Both the position numbers and the translations under genes were made by a program. This document shows positions 7,361-51,034 of a stretch of 64,000 bases of DNA, in pieces. The stretch comes from a bacterium (GTDB taxonomy: Bacteria > Patescibacteriota > Saccharimonadia > UBA4664 > JBBRNT01): positions 2,523 through 66,522 of the forward strand of contig JAYUFZ010000016.1 of the NCBI GenBank assembly GCA_043767845.1. Reading direction: 5' to 3'. The notes under the pieces are model-generated. The model saw only the letters and a program-made list of their open reading frames with translations. It searched no databases and was not told the origin of the DNA. Every line of letters begins with the position of its first letter. Positions within the stretch are counted from its first letter, which is position 1.

Positions 7361-9025
7361 ATGGCAAAGAAGATTTATTTTGACGATGAAGCCCGCAGCC
7401 GAGTACTAGCTGGGGCCAAGGAATTGTATGACGCCGTAAAGGTAACCATGGGGCCAAAGGGTCGCAACGTGGTGATCTCGAAGTCTTATGGTGGTCCGAC
7501 TGTCACGCATGACGGCGTCACAGTCGCCAAAGCTGTAGATATTGAGCAATCGCCCAAGCTGGAAAAGACCTGGGGCTACAATGTCGGCGCCGACCTGATC
7601 CGCCAGGCAGCTTCAAAGACAAATGATACGGTTGGCGATGGAACGACGACTTCGACTGTGCTTGCGTATCGTATTCTCGCAGAAGCTAATAAGCTAATTG
7701 CTTCTGGCCACAACCCGATGGATCTGAAAAAAGGCCTTGATCACGCTTCCAGCGAAGTATTGGCACAGATCGAAGGCATGAGCGAGAAGATTGCCGGCAA
7801 TCGGGCTAAAATCGCCCAGGTAGCTACCGTATCAGCAGGTGACTCCGAGATTGGTGAACTGATCGCCGACGTTATCGAAGCCGTTGGCGGCGAAGGCTCT
7901 GTCACCGTTGAGCAATCGCAAACGCTCGGTATGGAGAAGGAGATTGTCGAAGGCTTCAAGATCGACCGCGGTTACGTCAGCCCGTATATGGTCACTGATG
8001 CAGCCCGTATGGAATCCGTATACGACAAGCCGCTCATCATGATTACCGATAAGAAGATCAGCTCCATTCAAGAGATTTTACCGTTACTCGAGAAAGTCGC
8101 CCAAGGCGGCAAGAAGGAATTGGTGATTATTGCTGAGGATGTAGAAGGCGATGCATTATCGACTCTAATCTTGAACCGCTTAAAGGGCGCATTTAATGCC
8201 CTAGCTATCAAGGCTCCAGCCTTTGGCGACCGCCGCAAGGCAATCCTCGAAGATATCGCCATCTTGACCGGTGCCCAGGTTATCAGTGATGAAAGTGGCA
8301 TGACCTTTGAGAATGTCGGTGTTGAAGTACTGGGAAGCGCTCGTAAGATCATTGCTACCAAGGATGACACAACCATTATTGAAGGCTACGGTGATCTGAA
8401 AGACGTCAATGACCGCATTGCCCAGATTAAGGCTCAGGCCGAGCATGCTACCAGCGAATACGACAAAGAGAATATGGAAAAGCGATTATCGGCGCTAGCC
8501 GGCAAGGTCGCCGTTATCAAAGTCGGCGGTGCTACTGAGACCGAGATCGAGGAAAAGAAGTTCCGCGTCGATGATGCCGTAGCTGCTACCAAAGCAGCCG
8601 TGGCCGAAGGTATTGTCCCTGGCGGCGGCGTGACTTTAGTCGATCTGTCCAAGTCTATTGATCTTGAAGGCGCTAAGGCTACAGATTCCCGCGCAGTTGG
8701 AGCATTAATACTGAAGGAAGCGCTGCTACACCCCTTCCGCCAGCTGATGTTTAACGCCGGATTGAATCAAGAAGAAAAGCTCGCCAAGGTGCTCGAATCA
8801 GGTAAGCCAGGTTGGGGCTTCGACGTCAATGCTGCAGATAAATTGATCGACCTGATGCAAGCCGGAATCGTCGACCCGGCCAAGGTGACGCGCGAAGCTA
8901 TTACCAATGCTGTATCTGTTGCCGGTACAGCCATGACCATGGGCAGCCTCATTGTTGAGATCCCAGAAGAGAAATCTGGCGGCGGCGCTGGTGGCGGGAT
9001 GCCTGGCATGGGCATGGATTACTAG
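7361..9025 (+). CDS. groEL: chaperonin GroEL
   Basis: Canonical GroEL sequence with C-terminal GGM-like tail. Confidence 0.97.
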   Translation: MAKKIYFDDEARSRVLAGAKELYDAVKVTMGPKGRNVVISKSYGGPTVTHDGVTVAKAVDIEQSPKLEKTWGYNVGADLIRQAASKTNDTVGDGTTTSTVLAYRILAEANKLIASGHNPMDLKKGLDHASSEVLAQIEGMSEKIAGNRAKIAQVATVSAGDSEIGELIADVIEAVGGEGSVTVEQSQTLGMEKEIVEGFKIDRGYVSPYMVTDAARMESVYDKPLIMITDKKISSIQEILPLLEKVAQGGKKELVIIAEDVEGDALSTLILNRLKGAFNALAIKAPAFGDRRKAILEDIAILTGAQVISDESGMTFENVGVEVLGSARKIIATKDDTTIIEGYGDLKDVNDRIAQIKAQAEHATSEYDKENMEKRLSALAGKVAVIKVGGATETEIEEKKFRVDDAVAATKAAVAEGIVPGGGVTLVDLSKSIDLEGAKATDSRAVGALILKEALLHPFRQLMFNAGLNQEEKLAKVLESGKPGWGFDVNAADKLIDLMQAGIVDPAKVTREAITNAVSVAGTAMTMGSLIVEIPEEKSGGGAGGGMPGMGMDY

Positions 9026-9094: not shown

Positions 9095-9967
9095 ATGATA
9101 GAGCTAATGATACCCGAAATACCACTGACACACACCTTATCCAAATCCAAGCGTGAGCAGGACGGCGAGCGCCCCAGCCACGAGGGGATTCCTGCTGTAG
9201 ACAAGGATTCCTTTGAGCTTGACCGCGAGAGCTTCAAGGCTAACTTTGAGGTTGTCCGCGATATGATCGAAGCGGCTCGTAGCGCCGGCAGCCTGGCCGA
9301 GGGCTACAAGAAAGCGCTAGCCTATCGCGCCGAGTGCGGCCATCCGCAGCTCGCTCTCCAAATAGACTTAATGCTGAGCTCCATGACCGTCGGACCGGTC
9401 GACCGTGCCCTGCAACAGCTGCAGGGCGATAAAGAAGCCATAAAACAGCTACCAGTAGAAGAGCGCGATGAGGCACGGACCGAAAACAAGCTCAAGATTG
9501 CCCGGCATAAGCGGGTAATGGTTGGTTTTAATCACGGTATTCGCGAGCTAGTGGCCGAGAACCCACACGCTATGTCGATATCGAGCGTAACCAATTGGTT
9601 AGACCACCCGGATTACGACCGGACTTCATTGGTCGGCACCATCAAGGGCGCTTTTGGCGAGGTCGCCGCTCAAAAGATCCTTTCTGGGGTCAAGGGTGTG
9701 GTGGGCGTGGAGTACGGCAGTGTTGATGATGATCTGGTCGGTAAAGACCTGTGGGTGAAGGATATCAGCGGCAAAGAAATCGGCTTTGACGTTAAAAACA
9801 GTGTGTTGCCACAAGAGAAGACTATAGAGCGAGTAGCGCGCGAGGGTGAGCCAGATCGGATTATTCTCAGATTGGATTCAAATCAACTGATCGATACCGA
9901 CCCGAAGCCTGGCTACGCAGAGACCATCCAGCAGTTAGTAGCGCAAGAATTGGGCTTGACAATATGA
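9095..9967 (+). CDS. hypothetical protein (290 aa)
   Basis: Long ORF. No motif recognised. Confidence 0.4.
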   Translation: MIELMIPEIPLTHTLSKSKREQDGERPSHEGIPAVDKDSFELDRESFKANFEVVRDMIEAARSAGSLAEGYKKALAYRAECGHPQLALQIDLMLSSMTVGPVDRALQQLQGDKEAIKQLPVEERDEARTENKLKIARHKRVMVGFNHGIRELVAENPHAMSISSVTNWLDHPDYDRTSLVGTIKGAFGEVAAQKILSGVKGVVGVEYGSVDDDLVGKDLWVKDISGKEIGFDVKNSVLPQEKTIERVAREGEPDRIILRLDSNQLIDTDPKPGYAETIQQLVAQELGLTI

Positions 9968-10026
9968 CAGTTATGGTGTTTAATGTAATAGTTCATCGCT
10001 ACGCACGGGTTGTCCGTGCTCAAAAG

Positions 10027-10194
10027 CTGAAAGGAGGCAACTAATGCCTGCTACCGAAGCCCCCGCAGATCTCATCTGCGAAGTCGTCACCGTTTTGATG
10101 GCCACCAGCCAGGGCGAGCTGACCGACGACCAACGAGCACTCATGGAAGCGCACATTGCTTCCTGCCCGATCTGTACCGATCGAGCAACTCACT
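10027..10194 (+). CDS. mini zinc-finger peptide with ZAS (zinc anti-sigma, RsrA-like) spacing C12…H37-x3-C41-x2-C44; 55 aa
   Basis: GAAAGGAGG RBS 7 nt upstream. HxxxCxxC plus an upstream Cys at RsrA-equivalent positions. Strong terminator follows. Confidence 0.45.
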
Positions 10195-10209
10195 ACACCC
10201 CGGCCGCCT

Positions 10210-10248
10210 AGGCCTACCCCGTCCGTCCGCTCCGTGCCTTCACCGGTA
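10210..10248 (+). terminator. rho-independent terminator (CGCTCCGT…ACGGAGCG + T-tract)
   Basis: 8-bp perfect stem followed by CTTCTTTTTT. Confidence 0.7.
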
Positions 10249-10307
10249 CGGAGCGCTTCTTTTTTATCTGATAAATCGGCCGCATTAGATAAGGCTGTAA
10301 ATACCTA

Positions 10308-11100
10308 TTGACACAAATAACATAGCCTGATACGATCGTAAGCATCAGTTTCGTGGCCCTAACTACGAGATCGATTTTTGACAAGACAGAGAAATCCCCG
10401 GCTTCGGATCAGTGTTTCAAATCAGTTTGAAATAGCGATCCGAAGCTGGAAACACCAGCTCCCAACGAATGAGGTAATGCATGCACGACATGTCCACCTT
10501 CCACTCCTACAAGTTCTGAGCTCCGCGCCGCCGGCGACCCACAAGGTCTGCAGCACCCCGATGAAAGGTAATCATGCCACGAGCACCGAACACCCATCTC
10601 ATCCGCCGCAACACCCCAGCTCCACCGAGCTGAACACCGTCGCCGTCCGTTGACACCCAATTCGTAGTAGTGACCCGGCAATCACGCGGTAAGCTATGAA
10701 GCAAGTGTCCAATGTAAGGAGTATCAAATGCAGGAGATGCAGTAGCCCCGCCGCAAAGACGACAAGAAGAATCGTCTGACCGGAGCCCGGGGCATCTCGT
10801 GACGAATACGCAGTAACCCTAGCTGACAGCAGCAACCTGCGGGTCCACATGAGTTCTGACTTCGTCAGGCTGGCTGGGCGCTCTCGCCCCAATCCCACGC
10901 CTAGAAGCAAGCCATCTGCCCGATTCAAGGGACATTCAACCCTGACTGCTGAGCGTTTGAAGTGCTGCGACGAATATTCGTCAGGATGGGGGCAAGCTGG
11001 TAAGCTTGGGCACGTCGCTTGCGACCATGCTGGGATTCTCTGTCTTGTCTCCCCTCCGCAATTATTCAAAAATCCCTCGCCAATGGCGGGGGATTTTTGT
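10308..11100 (+). other. ~760-nt promoter-to-terminator unit without convincing ORF (candidate structured ncRNA or decayed gene)
   Basis: TTGACA-17-TACGAT at 10308-10336. Nested hairpins at 10395-10450 (GCTTCGGATC…GATCCGAAGC enclosing TTTCAAA…TTTGAAA). Terminator AAAATCCC…GGGGATTTTTG at about 11065-11100. Only short, low-complexity overlapping ORFs. Confidence 0.3.
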
Positions 11101-11283
11101 TACCCGCCTAAACCATTACAATCTTAAAGCCATTGACAAAAGTAGGCAAATATGCTAATATACAGCGCGTTACTCAACTGTACCTCACATCGGGTCTCTA
11201 GCCTCCACTGCTCTGGGTTGTATTCACCTACACCCCAGTACTGTGGAGTCCGCTAGGGACTCCCTCTCCCAGAGGAGAAATAC

Positions 11284-12009
11284 ATGCAGAAGCTCAATTT
11301 CACCGACGTTTTCCCCGATTCGCGCTTTGTGCGCAACGGCGCGTCCCATGAGGACGTCGTCAAAGGCGCGGAGATGGCGCTGGAGCACCGGGCCTTCGTT
11401 CGCGAGTTGACCGATCAGCTCGACGGGCGGATGTACAACACGATCAGCACCTGGGACACCTTCGTCGCCGAGGCCAACACCCAGCTCCACGCTGCACTGG
11501 TAGCCTTCAACCGGGTGGTTATCGCCTGGGAAGACTTCAGAGGCTTCATGCTCACCACCGAAGAACTGAAGACCGCCTCCGAGGCGTTGATCCGCTGCGA
11601 AGCGGCTCGACTCAACCTCACCGGCAGCTACCCAGCTCTCGTTTGCTCCAAGCTCGTCCACAACAAGTTGGCACGGGTCAAAGAGGGTATCCTCCAAGCT
11701 CGCCAGTATGAGCTGGACAAGGCAGAGTATCTTCAAAACGAGCTGCTGGGCATGCAACCCCAATCCGAAAAGCTGGTTGATCAACTGGTCGAACTGGCCG
11801 GCGATCCCCGGCTCACGCACGAATTGCAGGAAATGAGCACCGCACTCTGGACTCGGCTCTACTACGCTTGGAACGCTGCCGAAGAAGGCAAAGTCAAAGA
11901 TCTCTTTGAGCTGAAAAGCATCATCTCTGAGATGGAGCGCTTTGTGCTTAAGATGTCGAACCGCAAGCCGGCGCGGCCGGTCGAGGTGGTTCCCAAGACC
12001 GTCGACTGA
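11284..12009 (+). CDS. hypothetical protein (241 aa), locally GC-rich
   Basis: ORF with GAGGAG RBS. No motif. Confidence 0.45.
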   Translation: MQKLNFTDVFPDSRFVRNGASHEDVVKGAEMALEHRAFVRELTDQLDGRMYNTISTWDTFVAEANTQLHAALVAFNRVVIAWEDFRGFMLTTEELKTASEALIRCEAARLNLTGSYPALVCSKLVHNKLARVKEGILQARQYELDKAEYLQNELLGMQPQSEKLVDQLVELAGDPRLTHELQEMSTALWTRLYYAWNAAEEGKVKDLFELKSIISEMERFVLKMSNRKPARPVEVVPKTVD

Positions 12010-12311
12010 AGCAAGCAGGATCGCATTGCGGTGGCCAAGCCCCAGCGGGTCATCTCGACCCCCTCTCAGCGTGGGCGAGCAGTTGCCAATGCCGGCAAGA
12101 CCTCCGCCCAGCTGGCGGCTCGCGGCAAGAAGAAGTAGCCCCGGCTACACCTCGGCAAATAACACCGCCACTCTCTGGGAGAACCCCCGACCACATGCGC
12201 AAGTGCGTGGTCGGGGCAACCCCTAAGTACGTAACATAAGATTATGGCCTTAGGGGTTGTTTTTGTGTAAGCGGGGGCTCATCGACTATACTGGTGTAAA
12301 CAGGAGGGTTC

Positions 12312-13340
12312 ATGTTAGACGATCAGACTTTTATTGCCAAATACGATGTATCGAACGCGCTGGGGATTATTGGCGGCCAGCCAGATCAGCTTACGCAGGA
12401 CTACGACACCAGCCATATTGAGAAGTTTGAGGTTCGAAACATTGTATTAGCTGGTATGGGCGGTTCGGCATTAGCAGCGGAGTTTACTCGGTCGTGGTTA
12501 TCTGATCGCCTGCCTGTGCCATTCGTGATTGACCGCGACTACAATGACCCGGGTTTCGTGAACGAGAATACTCTCTTTATCGCTTCCAGTTATTCTGGCA
12601 ACACCGAGGAAACCATCTCGGCTCTCGAGCAAGCGGCTGCCAAAAAGGCTCATATTGTCATCCTGACGGCTGGCGGTAAGGAAGAAGAGATAGCAAAGGA
12701 GAAGAATTACCCCCTGCTGCTCACACCAAGTGGCCTCCAGCCGCGTCTAGCGGTTCTCTACGGCGTGAAAGCCCTCTGCCAGCTCTTTGATACACTTGAG
12801 CTCACCAAGGGCGCTACAGACGAGCTGATGGCCGGTGGCGAGTGGGCTAAGGCTCACATAGACACCTGGGTGGCTACGGCTCCTGCTGTTGGCAATGTGG
12901 CCAAGCAGATCGCCCAGGCCCTCTTTGGCTCGCCAGTCGTGGTTTACGGTGGCCCGAGCCTAGCTATGCCAACCATGAAGTGGAAGATCGATATCAATGA
13001 AAATGCTAAGAACGTGGCCTTCTACAATATTTTGTCCGAGCTCGACCATAATGAGTTTCAGGGTTGGATATTCCCCGAGCGCAAGCAGCTTAAAGTTGTA
13101 GAGTTGCAATCATCGTTTGATAATGATCGGATCAAGAAGCGCTTCGAGGTTACTAACAGGTTACTGAGCGGCCATATGCCGGCGCCAATCATCGTGCAGG
13201 CGATAGGTGAGAGCAAGCTAGAGCAAATGCTCTGGACACTTTTATTAGGGGATTTTGTGAGCGCCTACCTGGCTTTCCTAAATGGAATTGACCCGACGCC
13301 GGTAAAGCTCGTAGAGCAACTCAAGAAAGATCTCGGCTAG
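12312..13340 (+). CDS. bifunctional phosphoglucose/phosphomannose isomerase (SIS-domain, archaeal-type PGI/PMI)
   Basis: N-terminal SIS region VRNIVLAGMGGSALAAEF and overall pattern of the PGI/PMI family. Confidence 0.6.
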   Translation: MLDDQTFIAKYDVSNALGIIGGQPDQLTQDYDTSHIEKFEVRNIVLAGMGGSALAAEFTRSWLSDRLPVPFVIDRDYNDPGFVNENTLFIASSYSGNTEETISALEQAAAKKAHIVILTAGGKEEEIAKEKNYPLLLTPSGLQPRLAVLYGVKALCQLFDTLELTKGATDELMAGGEWAKAHIDTWVATAPAVGNVAKQIAQALFGSPVVVYGGPSLAMPTMKWKIDINENAKNVAFYNILSELDHNEFQGWIFPERKQLKVVELQSSFDNDRIKKRFEVTNRLLSGHMPAPIIVQAIGESKLEQMLWTLLLGDFVSAYLAFLNGIDPTPVKLVEQLKKDLG

Positions 13341-13530
13341 AGCTTCGGTACAGCCCTGCCACAGACACCCAAAACCCCCGCTGGTAGCGGGGGTTTTGGG
13401 GTGGAAAAGATCTGATCTTGTTCAGCATAACAATTACCATCCTCTAATCTGTTGAACACTTATGCTATCAGATTGGAAAAGGTCAGACCTCTTGGCGGTT
13501 ATGCTAGGATGTTGCGCAAGGCCTAGCGAG

Positions 13531-24144: not shown

Positions 24145-24234
24145 GGAGAGGTCGCATAGTGGCCTAGTGCACCGCCTTGGAAAGGCGGCACGGGAGCAAT
24201 CTCGTCGAGAGTTCGAATCTCTCCCTCTCCGCCA
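24145..24234 (+). tRNA. tRNA-Ser (anticodon GGA), CCA encoded
   Basis: GGAGAGG acceptor, anticodon loop TTGGAAA, long variable arm, T-arm GAGTTCGAATCTC, 3' CCTCTCC-G-CCA. Confidence 0.9.
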
Positions 24235-49963: not shown

Positions 49964-50009
49964 AAACTGTCACATCTAGTTGACAGAAAATCGATCTTAT
50001 GCTAGGATG

Positions 50010-50524
50010 TGAGCACCGTTTCTAAAAGCAGTTGCTGTCTTCCTGATGCTTGTGCGGTAGATGTCCGCACCATTGTTTTGATAGCGAAGCTCGACAGATG
50101 CACCCGGAAAGTCCTGGTGTAAGCCGTAAGGCGACGGTTAGTTACTCCTGGTGACTAATGGATTCCAATTAGTAGGTGGCACCCGAGCTGCCCAAAAACT
50201 CGGGTCGGTCGACATCGACCGTGTACGGTCCGGAGGCGGATAACCGCCCAGACACTGCTGCTGTAAGCGGCGCCTGATCGCTTCTACCAAGGAGGACCCC
50301 GACTCACAGATACGACGTGGCCTGAAAAGGTTGCAATCCAAAAGGCGTTTTCAGCGCCACAACACGCGGCTGTGCCGCGGAAACCATCGTCGATCGCCCA
50401 TCGCGATCAGCAACAAAATGGTCCGCTTGGCCGGTAGGAAAGTAGCTCACTTGCAGCAAACCCCTCCGGCCAGGCGCCCCCAATCTATGATCTTTATACC
50501 TAAACGCCTCTGGGCGTTTTTTGT
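50010..50524 (+). ncRNA. candidate structured ncRNA (about 515 nt) bounded by promoter and terminator; identity unresolved
   Basis: TTGACA-17-TAGGAT at 49979-50007. Terminator AAACGCC-TCTG-GGCGTTTTTT at 50503-50524. No ORF longer than 18 aa with a start. Contains GGAAAGUCC and a GGCGG-AUAA-CCGCC hairpin. Confidence 0.35.
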
Positions 50525-51034
50525 TTGCCTTGTTGCGCAGACCTCACTTACAATTTGTATGAACTGTGGATAACTGGATCAAATTTAAGTAATTTAGTCG
50601 GCATTCATTGACGCTAATAAACTATTACTCAACGGATAGGAAGTTAGAATGATTTAAGATATTACACAGAATGTGTTGACACAAAATTATAGACGTGATA
50701 ATCTACAATCAGTTCAAAGAAAAAATGTCAAAGAGGAGGGACAGAATGGAACAATTACGAGTCGACAAAGCTGTGAGCAGCGCCAAAAAGTGTCAACGGC
50801 TATGGGATGACTCGGGCTAGCGGTGAGTAACAAAAATCTTTTACGGGTTCGAAGTTTCTAGGCAAGCGAGAGAAAAACCATATAACTTCCGGTTCAGCAC
50901 AGTGCCACATAATTACGATCAAGTATTAGGGCAGGTTTAGGCAGAAGCGGGGGTTAGGTTCAAAAACAAGAGAGATGGGCTTTTAGGGTAAGCACATCTC
51001 TTTTTTGTTTTGTACGAAAATACATCGTTTTACC

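What the first reader, a model, noticed from the sequence alone, without database searches (positions are those of the whole stretch)
10270..11100. Second large non-coding transcription unit (~760 nt) downstream of a ZAS-like zinc peptide
Promoter TTGACA-17-TACGAT (10308-10336) and terminator at about 11065-11100 enclose 760 nt in which the ORF track offers only overlapping low-complexity ORFs in alternating frames. The 5' part forms a long nested hairpin (GCTTCGGATC…GATCCGAAGC enclosing TTTCAAA-TCAG-TTTGAAA). There are further long-range complements (TGACGAATACGCAG…TTCGTCAG; GACGAATATTCGTC). A 5-codon RBS-preceded mini-ORF (MQEMQ) sits at 10728. It could be a large structured RNA or a heavily decayed gene. 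The flanking genes (9095-9967, 10027-10194, 11284-12009) are all unassigned and locally GC-rich, so this may be an acquired island next to groEL.
Basis: seen in the sequence. Interest (0 to 1): 0.55.

Follow-up and report, generated by a model that had tools for sequence, protein, structure and literature searches.

The report
End-clamped structured small-ORF RNA unit
The 760-base gap is probably not a dead gene but one copy of an undescribed, fast-evolving family of tightly folded transcripts in Saccharibacteria, each with its two ends base-paired together and a tiny reading frame at the front; what they do is unknown.

Summary
A near-consensus sigma-70 promoter (10308-10336) and a strong intrinsic terminator (11067-11099) bracket about 760 nt. 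This stretch has no coding potential in any frame, no Rfam match and no protein homologue. The + strand folds far better than shuffles or coding controls (z -8.7 against -1.0 +/- 1.5).

The same layout recurs in about nine further units in eight related Saccharimonadia genomes, mostly in the hypervariable groEL-pgi gap. It consists of promoter, 5' hairpin, TTGACA-initiated long-range helix, 15-26-bp hairpin, Shine-Dalgarno-led short ORF with extreme GC3, a C-rich structured body that is not conserved, and terminator. The helices covary.

It is therefore neither a decayed ordinary gene nor a member of any described RNA family. In architecture it most resembles type I toxin mRNAs, but it lacks their hydrophobic toxin and antisense partner. 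In the window the ORF has only 12 codons and may be frameshifted. Function and transcription are untested.

The parts
10308..10336 (+). Sigma-70-type promoter, TTGACA-17-TACGAT with a TG extension. Predicted transcription start near 10343.
   Evidence: 10 of 12 matches. All 10 related units carry a comparable + strand promoter, 9-12 of 12 matches.
10344..10375 (+). H0: a hairpin at the very 5' end of the predicted RNA. It starts with AUCAGUU; UCAGUU also opens the L008A and L008B units.
   Evidence: MFE and centroid structures. Sequence comparison.
10380..10398 (+). P1 5' strand: GACAAGACAGAGAA (perfect 14-bp core, 10380-10393), then a 1-nt bulge and UCCC. It begins inside a TTGACA motif shared by the family.
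10400..10447 (+). HP1: a 22-bp hairpin with a UCAG tetraloop (10422-10425), a conserved A.C mismatch and G.U pairs.
   Evidence: Against L082 3276-3323: 90.9% of cells paired, 6 pairs changed on both sides, slid controls 20-43%. Leader alignment with L082 gives z 8.5.
10471..10519 (+). Shine-Dalgarno GAGG (10471-10474) and ORF1: ATG at 10481, 12 codons (MHDMSTFHSYKF), stop at 10517-10519. GC3 is 12 of 12. A GC3-rich run continues in the -1 frame at 10517-10561, so the ORF may be frameshifted.
   Evidence: The equivalent SD-led ORF1 in other units has GC3 of 0.80-0.98 in seven, 0.74 in L004B and 0.63-0.65 in L081 and L001. Only 2% of 15-codon windows in real genes of the window reach 0.87.
10520..11031 (+). 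C-rich structured body with no conserved sequence and no significant period-3 signal. It contains the SD-led 5-codon mini-ORF (SD 10716-10721, ORF 10728-10745), the 10797-10808 / 10975-10986 pairing and the 10969-10982 palindrome.
11032..11049 (+). P1 3' strand: GGGA then UUCUCUGUCUUGUC. It pairs with 10380-10398 and lies 17 nt before the terminator stem.
11067..11099 (+). Intrinsic terminator: a 16-nt-arm hairpin followed by a U run.
   Evidence: A weak Rfam terminator-type match, Leu_leader E 0.49, covers only this hairpin.

Best explanation
The interval is a single transcription unit. It makes a tightly folded RNA of about 760 nt and belongs to an undescribed Saccharimonadia family of end-clamped small-ORF transcripts.

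Shown in the sequence:
- a strong promoter;
- a hairpin at the 5' end (H0);
- a long-range helix (P1) that pairs the leader, starting in a TTGACA motif, with the bases just upstream of the terminator;
- a 22-bp hairpin (HP1) directly after the P1 5' strand;
- a Shine-Dalgarno plus AUG opening a very short ORF, 12 codons here and 10-83 in most relatives, with extreme GC3;
- a C-rich body of about 500 nt whose sequence is not conserved but which is always highly structured;
- an intrinsic terminator.

Inferred:
- The RNA is made at a high level.
- The 5' hairpin, P1 and the terminator hairpin hide both ends from exonucleases and hold the transcript in a compact, long-lived form.
- The short ORF is translated from a start site that the predicted fold partly buries. 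GAGG pairs with CCUU in a local hairpin.
- The clamp therefore governs stability and how much of the ORF is translated, much as in the long-distance-interaction mRNAs of type I toxins.

The biological role of the peptide or the RNA is unknown. The window's copy may be a weakened member because its ORF1 is very short.
For: - Promoter and terminator.
- No coding potential.
- No Rfam family.
- Fold z is -8.7 against coding controls of -1.0 +/- 1.5.
- All nine unit cores fold with z between -5.6 and -12.8, and the + strand has the larger excess stability in 8 of 9.
- P1 is a perfect 14-bp match. In a search seeded on T[TC]GACA across 86 sequences, the five top scores (14-16 perfect bp, background at most 13.5) were units on the + strand with arms 420-705 nt apart. 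A terminator follows the 3' arm in each: the script detected four of them, and that of L004A is visible in the sequence.
- In the unseeded 11-mer scan, 5 of 57 hits start at that motif.
- P1 forms in the unconstrained MFE of 7 of 9 units.
- P1 covariation: 92.7% of cells paired against 65% in shuffles and 33-42% when slid, with 12 of 16 pairs changed on both sides.
- HP1 against L082: 6 pairs changed on both sides, a conserved G.U pair and a conserved A.C mismatch.
- Leader sequence homology: window-L082 z 8.5, L008A-L008B z 18, L008B-L002 z 8.7.
- The SD-led ORF1 has very high GC3 in most units, for example 0.98 in L047 and L002, whose groEL has GC3 of 0.40-0.43.
- Long-distance 5'-3' pairing that stabilises and silences a small-ORF mRNA is documented for aapA1 and hok (PMC5416894).
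Against: - Transcription, end pairing and translation are all predictions; there are no RNA data.
- Sequence homology is demonstrable only within subgroups. Window against most other units gives z below 3.3, so the wider family rests on architecture and short motifs.
- The P1 3' arms were found by searching for complementarity, so the covariation count is partly circular.
- P1 is almost purely Watson-Crick, with 1 G.U in 89 paired cells, which a DNA inverted repeat would also give.
- ORF1 peptides are not conserved across units and have lengths that chance could produce.
- P1 does not itself cover the Shine-Dalgarno sequence.
- The window's ORF1 has only 12 codons.
- Only 9 of about 95 groEL loci examined (the window and eight relatives) carry a unit.
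Confidence: 0.55

Rival explanations
1. The window's copy is a decaying, no longer functional member of the family. A 1-nt deletion truncated ORF1 from about 57 to 12 codons. The promoter, helices and terminator simply have not eroded yet.
For: - After the ORF1 stop, 15 of 15 codons in the -1 frame (10517-10561) end in G or C, and a second GC3-rich stretch lies at 10598-10640 in that frame.
- ORF1 is 30-55 codons in most relatives.
- The window core has one of the weaker fold z-scores in the family, -6.5.
Against: - The body as a whole has no significant period-3 signal (p = 0.19).
- A 15-of-15 run is only borderline after allowing for multiple windows; I estimate about 0.04.
- L004A also has a 10-codon ORF1 with intact architecture.
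- P1 is still a perfect 14 bp and the promoter is near consensus.
- An assembly indel cannot be excluded.
Confidence: 0.18
2. It acts purely as a large non-coding RNA, for example as a scaffold, decoy or sponge. The SD-AUG serves only as a ribosome-binding stabiliser, and the peptide is irrelevant.
For: - ORF1 peptides are unrelated between units, and ORF lengths fit chance.
- There are no protein homologues.
- Most of the unit is structured non-coding RNA.
- A second perfect SD (AAGGAG) opens only a 5-codon ORF at 10728. Non-translational stabilising SD elements are known from general knowledge, for example STAB-SD in Bacillus cryIIIA mRNA.
Against: - GC3 of 0.85-1.0 confined to the ORF1 frame is hard to explain without translation. 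Examples are 52 of 53 codons in L047 and 49 of 50 in L002.
- The bodies cannot be aligned even between the two paralogues in L008. This argues against a conserved tertiary fold of the kind seen in OLE, GOLLD or ROOL.
Confidence: 0.15
3. The 14-bp repeats are DNA inverted repeats of an invertible (phase-variable) segment or of a MITE-like element, not an RNA helix.
For: - The arms are perfect Watson-Crick repeats 642 nt apart.
- Across six units only one G.U occurs among the paired cells, and all differences are two-sided, as expected if recombination homogenises the arms.
- Two copies sit in one locus in both L008 and L004.
Against: - All 10 units have the same orientation relative to their promoter and terminator.
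- The promoter, H0 and terminator lie outside the repeats yet are part of the conserved layout.
- No recombinase or transposase domain is found in the neighbouring ORFs.
- There is no target-site duplication.
- There is no second copy in the 64-kb window.
- HP1 and the other helices show G.U pairs and a + strand bias, which point to selection on RNA.
- L008A's P1 carries a U.G that would be a C.A mismatch on the other strand.
Confidence: 0.08
4. The whole interval is the wreck of one ordinary protein-coding gene.
For: - ORFs of 90-156 codons occur in alternating frames.
- The + strand composition is C- and A-rich.
Against: - All of these ORFs score like spurious ORFs.
- No Pfam or PHROG hit.
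- No tblastn or tblastx similarity in 94 related loci.
- HMMER against 1.84 billion representatives found only a repeat-driven artefact.
- The conserved minus-strand gene that fills this gap in distant relatives is absent.
- No significant period-3 signal.
Confidence: 0.04

Closest known systems
Type I toxin mRNAs locked by long-distance 5'-3' pairing (hok/Sok, aapA1/IsoA1; PMC5416894)
   Same: - A small SD-led ORF on a very stable, heavily structured transcript.
- The 5' leader base-pairs with the extreme 3' end just before the terminator.
- The SD is predicted to sit in a local helix.
- Copies are sporadic, multiple and fast-evolving, and lie in variable loci.
   Different: - The units are 2-3 times longer, 520-815 nt against about 250-400 nt.
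- ORF1 products are not hydrophobic membrane peptides. The window's has hydropathy -0.67, and only ORF2 of L008B has a transmembrane helix.
- There is no consistent antisense promoter.
- P1 does not cover the SD.
- ORF1 has extreme GC3.
- Toxicity is unknown.
Large structured bacterial RNAs of unknown function (OLE, GOLLD, ROOL, HEARO, raiA)
   Same: - Hundreds of nucleotides long.
- Own promoter and terminator.
- Strong predicted structure with the 5' and 3' ends brought together.
- Lineage-restricted.
   Different: - No covariance-model match.
- Those families have conserved cores. Here only the leader, P1 and the layout are conserved, and the bodies cannot be aligned even between paralogues.
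- A translated-looking short ORF is present.
Invertible DNA segments (invertons) and MITEs
   Same: Perfect inverted repeats of 14-16 bp flank a segment of 420-705 bp.
   Different: - Fixed orientation in all copies.
- No recombinase nearby and no target-site duplication.
- The conserved promoter and terminator lie outside the repeats.
- The internal helices show RNA-type pairing.

Membership tests
Rfam RNA families (all 4227, including OLE, GOLLD, ROOL, HEARO, raiA, RNase P, tmRNA, 6S, group I/II introns) | Match to the family covariance model at or near its gathering score | tested here: not met
   the only hit in the window at gathering score is a tRNA at 24145; the best hit in 9900-12350 is Leu_leader, 20 bits against a cut-off of 50, covering only the terminator hairpin; nothing in the related units L081 and L082; no tmRNA.
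Type I toxin mRNA (hok / aapA1 type) | [quoted passage not shown] | tested here: met
   Perfect 14-bp match 10380-10393 / 11036-11049. It forms in the unconstrained MFE. It recurs with covariation in other units. This is a prediction only.
Type I toxin mRNA (hok / aapA1 type) | Small hydrophobic, membrane-active toxin ORF of fewer than about 60 aa | tested here: not met
   the window's ORF1 is MHDMSTFHSYKF, mean hydropathy -0.67. ORF1 of the other units has a maximum 15-aa hydropathy of 1.0 or less. Only ORF2 of L008B has a transmembrane-like stretch.
Type I toxin mRNA (hok / aapA1 type) | Cis-encoded antisense RNA antitoxin with its own promoter | tested here: not met
   the only minus-strand site inside the window's unit is a weak 8 of 12 match at 11089. 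Only 3 of 10 units have an antisense site of 9 of 12 or better, and at inconsistent positions. A consensus scan cannot exclude a weak promoter.
Type I toxin mRNA (hok / aapA1 type) | Shine-Dalgarno sequestered in the full-length fold; activation by 3' processing; toxicity | not testable with these tools
   The MFE pairs GAGG (10471-10474) with CCUU in a local hairpin. This is a prediction only; processing and toxicity need experiments.
Invertible DNA segment | Flanking inverted repeats | tested here: met
Invertible DNA segment | Site-specific recombinase encoded nearby | tested here: not met
   p290, p55, p241 and p35 have no recombinase domain. p290 has a PD-(D/E)xK-like motif only.
Invertible DNA segment | Both orientations present in the population | not testable with these tools
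   Reads are not available. All 10 assembled units have the same orientation.
MITE / IS remnant | Terminal inverted repeats with target-site duplication and several similar copies in the genome | tested here: not met
   No duplication flanks 10380 and 11049. There is no other copy in the 64-kb window. No match in phage or plasmid collections. The rest of the genome was not available.
Pseudogene of a conserved protein gene | An intact homologous CDS in relatives collinear with the interval, and residual coding signal | tested here: not met
   Searches found no homologue; codon scores negative; period-3 signal p = 0.19.
End-clamped small-ORF units of Saccharimonadia (defined here) | Strong promoter and intrinsic terminator; 5' hairpin; T[TC]GACA-initiated long-range helix ending just before the terminator; long hairpin next to it; SD-led ORF1 with high GC3; highly structured body | tested here: met
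   The window meets every item. Sequence homology is shown only to L082 (z 8.5) and marginally to L001 (z 3.2).

The most novel reading that the evidence does not exclude
The units are host-directed RNAs. They would be very stable, end-clamped messages whose tiny ORFs are written almost entirely in G/C-ending codons (GC3 0.85-1.0), even in Saccharibacteria whose own groEL has GC3 of 0.40-0.43. The reason would be that they are meant to be translated in, or to act in, the high-GC actinobacterial host of these episymbionts. Their hypervariability would then reflect an arms race.
Probability: 0.04. Interest if true: 0.95.

Novelty: new variant of a known kind. Interest (0 to 1): 0.6.

Why it matters
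Saccharibacteria and other CPR bacteria have tiny, gene-dense genomes. A non-coding stretch of about 1 kb with a near-consensus promoter is therefore costly and probably useful. This analysis turns one odd gap into a recognisable class with a checkable signature:
- a TTGACA-initiated 5'-3' clamp;
- a long leader hairpin;
- an SD-led micro-ORF with extreme GC3;
- a non-conserved but always highly structured body.

The class recurs, sometimes in tandem, in a hypervariable locus next to groESL. If the units are transcribed as predicted, they would be a new example of long-distance-interaction control of small ORFs outside the toxin-antitoxin world. They would also be a candidate for highly expressed, fast-evolving factors in the episymbiotic lifestyle. 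The signature can be searched genome-wide and tested directly by RNA-seq on cultivated Saccharibacteria.

Tried and rejected
- Rfam at gathering and at E <= 10 on the window region, on L081/L082 and on the second non-coding unit: nothing.
- tRNA/tmRNA scan: nothing in the region.
- blastn and nhmmer of the unit against 85 relatives' groEL loci: no hit.
- Exact-pattern scan of JGI metagenomes with the conserved HP1 motif: 16 hits, all chance matches in coding DNA.
- Phage and plasmid collections: no match.
- Protein searches:
  - p241 is an orphan.
  - ORF1 of L002 has no homologue.
  - The 58-aa frame-B ORF of the window hits only a repeat protein.
  - Pfam, PHROGs, PADLOC, NCBIfam and PDB give nothing for the inner ORFs, the ORF1 peptides, p290 or p241.
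- The idea that the region is a decayed copy of the conserved 'MFG...' gene that fills the groEL-pgi gap in distant relatives: rejected.
- tblastx among the units: only low-complexity P/S/T/R matches.
- A family-wide leader alignment with MAFFT was too poor to build a covariance model, so none was built.
- Nine more groEL loci from the protein collection carried no unit.
- Type I toxin-antitoxin membership: rejected on the toxin and antisense criteria.
- Defence-system membership: no PADLOC hit.
- The leader's TTGACA as a second promoter: rejected, because no -10 element lies 16-19 nt downstream in any unit (direct reading).

Full report
**Setting.** GroEL searches place the window in Saccharimonadia (Saccharibacteria/TM7, Patescibacteria). 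The closest GroEL proteins in 185,579 species genomes and in a 5.8-billion-protein collection are only 79-84% identical. The local gene order is:
- groES-groEL (7361-9025);
- p290 (9095-9967);
- p55, a 55-aa zf-HC2/ZAS-type peptide (10044-10211; Pfam PF13490, E 9e-6), with its own terminator;
- the interval in question;
- p241 (11284-12009), which has its own promoter at 11133-11161 and is an orphan;
- a possible 35-aa basic ORF;
- a pgi-type isomerase (12312-13340).

**The observation.** The ORFs inside the interval are not genes. Under a 3-periodic Markov model trained on 50 long ORFs of the window they score -4.6 to -10.5 per 100 nt. That is like spurious overlapping ORFs (mean -4.3) and unlike p290, p241 or groEL (+5.5 to +7.7). 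They have no Pfam or PHROG match.

As RNA, the + strand folds to -291 kcal/mol against -236 +/- 6 for dinucleotide shuffles (z -8.7). The minus strand gives z -4.6. Twenty-six coding windows of equal length give -1.0 +/- 1.5, with a minimum of -4.7.

GACAAGACAGAGAA at 10380-10393 is perfectly complementary to 11036-11049, 642 nt downstream. The pairing continues after a one-base bulge with UCCC/GGGA. In the unconstrained fold this helix (P1) closes the whole RNA. Only a 5'-terminal hairpin (H0, 10344-10375) and the terminator lie outside it. I expect about 0.001 perfect 14-mer complements by chance in an interval of this size.

About 25 nt further on, a Shine-Dalgarno GAGG (10471-10474) precedes ATG 10481 and a 12-codon ORF, MHDMSTFHSYKF. 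All twelve of its third positions are G or C.

**Relatives.** No relative shows blastn or nhmmer similarity to the unit. Reading the syntenic gap in the closest genomes nevertheless revealed the same construction. L082 (GroEL 84% identical) has a promoter, a 5' hairpin, TTGACA, a 22-bp hairpin with the same UCAG loop and the shared string UAGCGAUCCG, an SD-led 45-codon ORF, a C-rich body and a terminator.
- The two leaders align with z 8.5.
- In the hairpin, 6 of 22 pairs differ on both sides while staying paired, 2 differ on one side through G.U, and a G.U pair and an A.C mismatch are conserved. Partners slid by 1-3 columns pair in only 20-43% of cells, against 90.9% in register.

By eye and by script I then found comparable units:
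- L081;
- L008, two in tandem;
- L004, two, the second leading into a 232-aa ORF;
- L001;
- L002;
- L047, 3.5 kb upstream of groES;
- L007, a leader-plus-ORF version with a 128-aa ORF.

Every unit has a + strand promoter matching 9-12 of 12 consensus positions, and none has a consistent antisense promoter.

**The clamp is a family trait.**
- A search seeded on T[TC]GACA looked for the best complement within 1.6 kb in all 86 sequences. Its five top hits (14-16 perfect pairs, background at most 13.5) were L004A, L008B, L047, L001 and the window. All are on the + strand with arms 420-705 nt apart. A terminator follows the 3' arm in each: the script detected four of them, and that of L004A is visible in the sequence.
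- In an unseeded scan for exact 11-mer inverted repeats followed by a terminator, 5 of 57 hits began at that motif.
- P1 forms in the unconstrained MFE of 7 of 9 units.
- On an ungapped, anchor-aligned set of six P1 helices, 92.7% of cells pair. Shuffles give 65% (0 of 500 reach the observed value) and slid partners give 33-42%. Twelve of 16 pairs differ on both sides.

There are caveats. The 3' arms were located by their complementarity, so this count mainly shows that each unit keeps its own perfect partner. Only one G.U occurs, so a DNA inverted repeat would look the same.

Four points argue against a DNA switch or MITE:
- all ten units have the same orientation;
- the conserved promoter, H0 and terminator lie outside the repeats;
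- no recombinase is nearby;
- the + strand has the greater excess folding stability in 8 of 9 unit cores, which have z between -5.6 and -12.8.

**Coding content.** There is no protein-level similarity among the units and no homologue for ORF1 peptides. The first SD-led ORF is nevertheless unlikely to be noise, because of its GC3:

| Unit | ORF1 GC3 |
|---|---|
| L047 | 0.98 (52 of 53 codons) |
| L002 | 0.98 |
| L008A | 0.93 |
| L082 | 0.87 |
| L008B | 0.85 |
| window | 1.00 |

GC at positions 1 and 2 of these ORFs is about 0.55-0.6. groEL of L047 and L002 has GC3 of 0.40-0.43, and only 2% of 15-codon windows in real genes of the window reach 0.87.

The bodies downstream of ORF1 show no significant period-3 signal in five of eight units, including the window (p = 0.19). 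The exceptions are L047 (strong) and L081 and L008B (marginal). The bodies of the two L008 paralogues cannot be aligned although their leaders are about 75% identical. In the 45-48% GC genomes L047 and L002, the unit bodies are patches of 60-70% GC set between AT-rich promoter, leader and terminator segments.

In the window, a run of 15 of 15 G/C-ending codons continues in the -1 frame right after the ORF1 stop. ORF1 may therefore be frameshifted, but this is a hint and not a result.

**Interpretation.** I read the interval as one member of an undescribed family of end-clamped, highly structured small-ORF transcripts. The conserved parts are the expression and clamping apparatus and the start of a short ORF. 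The cargo and body evolve freely under a constraint to stay tightly folded.

The nearest described mechanism is the long-distance 5'-3' interaction that keeps hok and aapA1 toxin mRNAs stable and poorly translated until 3' processing (PMC5416894). Membership of that class fails on two defining features: there is no hydrophobic toxin and no antisense partner. The claim is therefore 'works somewhat like', not 'is'.

The alternatives are treated as rivals: a decaying copy, a purely non-coding role, a DNA inversion switch and a wrecked ordinary gene.

**The 'island' idea.** The groEL-pgi distance ranges from 74 nt (L085) to 7 kb among relatives, so the locus is hypervariable. However:
- p290 and p241 have native-like codon usage;
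- GC is unremarkable in the window;
- p290 belongs to a family found at this position in six relatives, with invariant E, D, D and K residues in a PD-(D/E)xK-like pattern.

**Limits.** All related loci were fetched around groEL, so the apparent link to groESL may be a sampling effect. The family is small, about ten units in nine genomes out of about 95 loci examined. No expression data exist here.

Noticed in passing
window 49981-50525: Another promoter-to-terminator unit without an ORF: TTGACA-17-TAGGAT at 49981-50009 and a terminator near 50500-50525, about 510 nt. There is no Rfam match even at E <= 10, and the fold z is -3.9. It lacks the TTGACA/P1 layout. It contains GGAAAGUCC and ACAAAAUGG strings reminiscent of RNase P P4, but the Rfam RNase P models do not match it.
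   Followed up: partly
window 9095-9967 (p290): p290 belongs to a family found beside groEL in L001, L003, L004, L007, L008 and L083. Residues E189, D213, G216, D218, D232 and K234 are invariant, in a PD-(D/E)xK-like nuclease pattern. It has no Pfam, NCBIfam, PADLOC or PDB match.
   Followed up: partly
window 10044-10211 (p55); L007 about 13333-13425: A ZAS-type HxxxCxxC mini-protein sits directly upstream of the unit's promoter in the window. A peptide of about 30 aa with the same motif (MSHLVWDCLMGHIAACQPCETKLASLSRHN) sits in the same position in L007. It was seen in only two genomes, so it may be coincidence.
   Followed up: partly
window 11133-12265: The p241 unit has the same style as the structured unit: a near-consensus promoter, a leader of about 120 nt with a long two-tier hairpin, a strong SD and an orphan ORF with the highest GC3 of the genes checked (0.76). 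It is followed by a possible 35-aa basic ORF (12031-12138, my count of GC3 about 0.83), hairpins and a terminator.
   Followed up: partly
L008 12491-12640: The second unit of L008 carries a second SD-led ORF with a clear transmembrane stretch (MIIFTGAWASLMLVLAIGAIIPV...). It is the only toxin-like peptide seen in the family.
   Followed up: no
L019, L025, L026, L078, L060, L070, L080, L022, L016 (groEL-pgi gap): More distant Saccharibacteria fill the gap with a conserved minus-strand gene: MFGxQDNQ..., a low-complexity middle, and a conserved C-terminus ...LSPLVGHLDQTPEEKF...AQALLDIINEINYFTQ. The window does not have it.
   Followed up: partly
L047 5201-5600 and 8001-9600; L002 12001-12800 and 14001-14400: Further patches of 58-71% GC lie in these 45-48% GC genomes next to the units. 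Some contain longer ORFs with GC3 above 0.9. This suggests arrays of GC-rich cassettes around groESL.
   Followed up: partly
L102-L104 and L109-L110, upstream of groES: PhdYeFM/PIN toxin-antitoxin pairs sit immediately upstream of groES in several relatives. This is another sign that the groESL neighbourhood is a variable region in this lineage.
   Followed up: no
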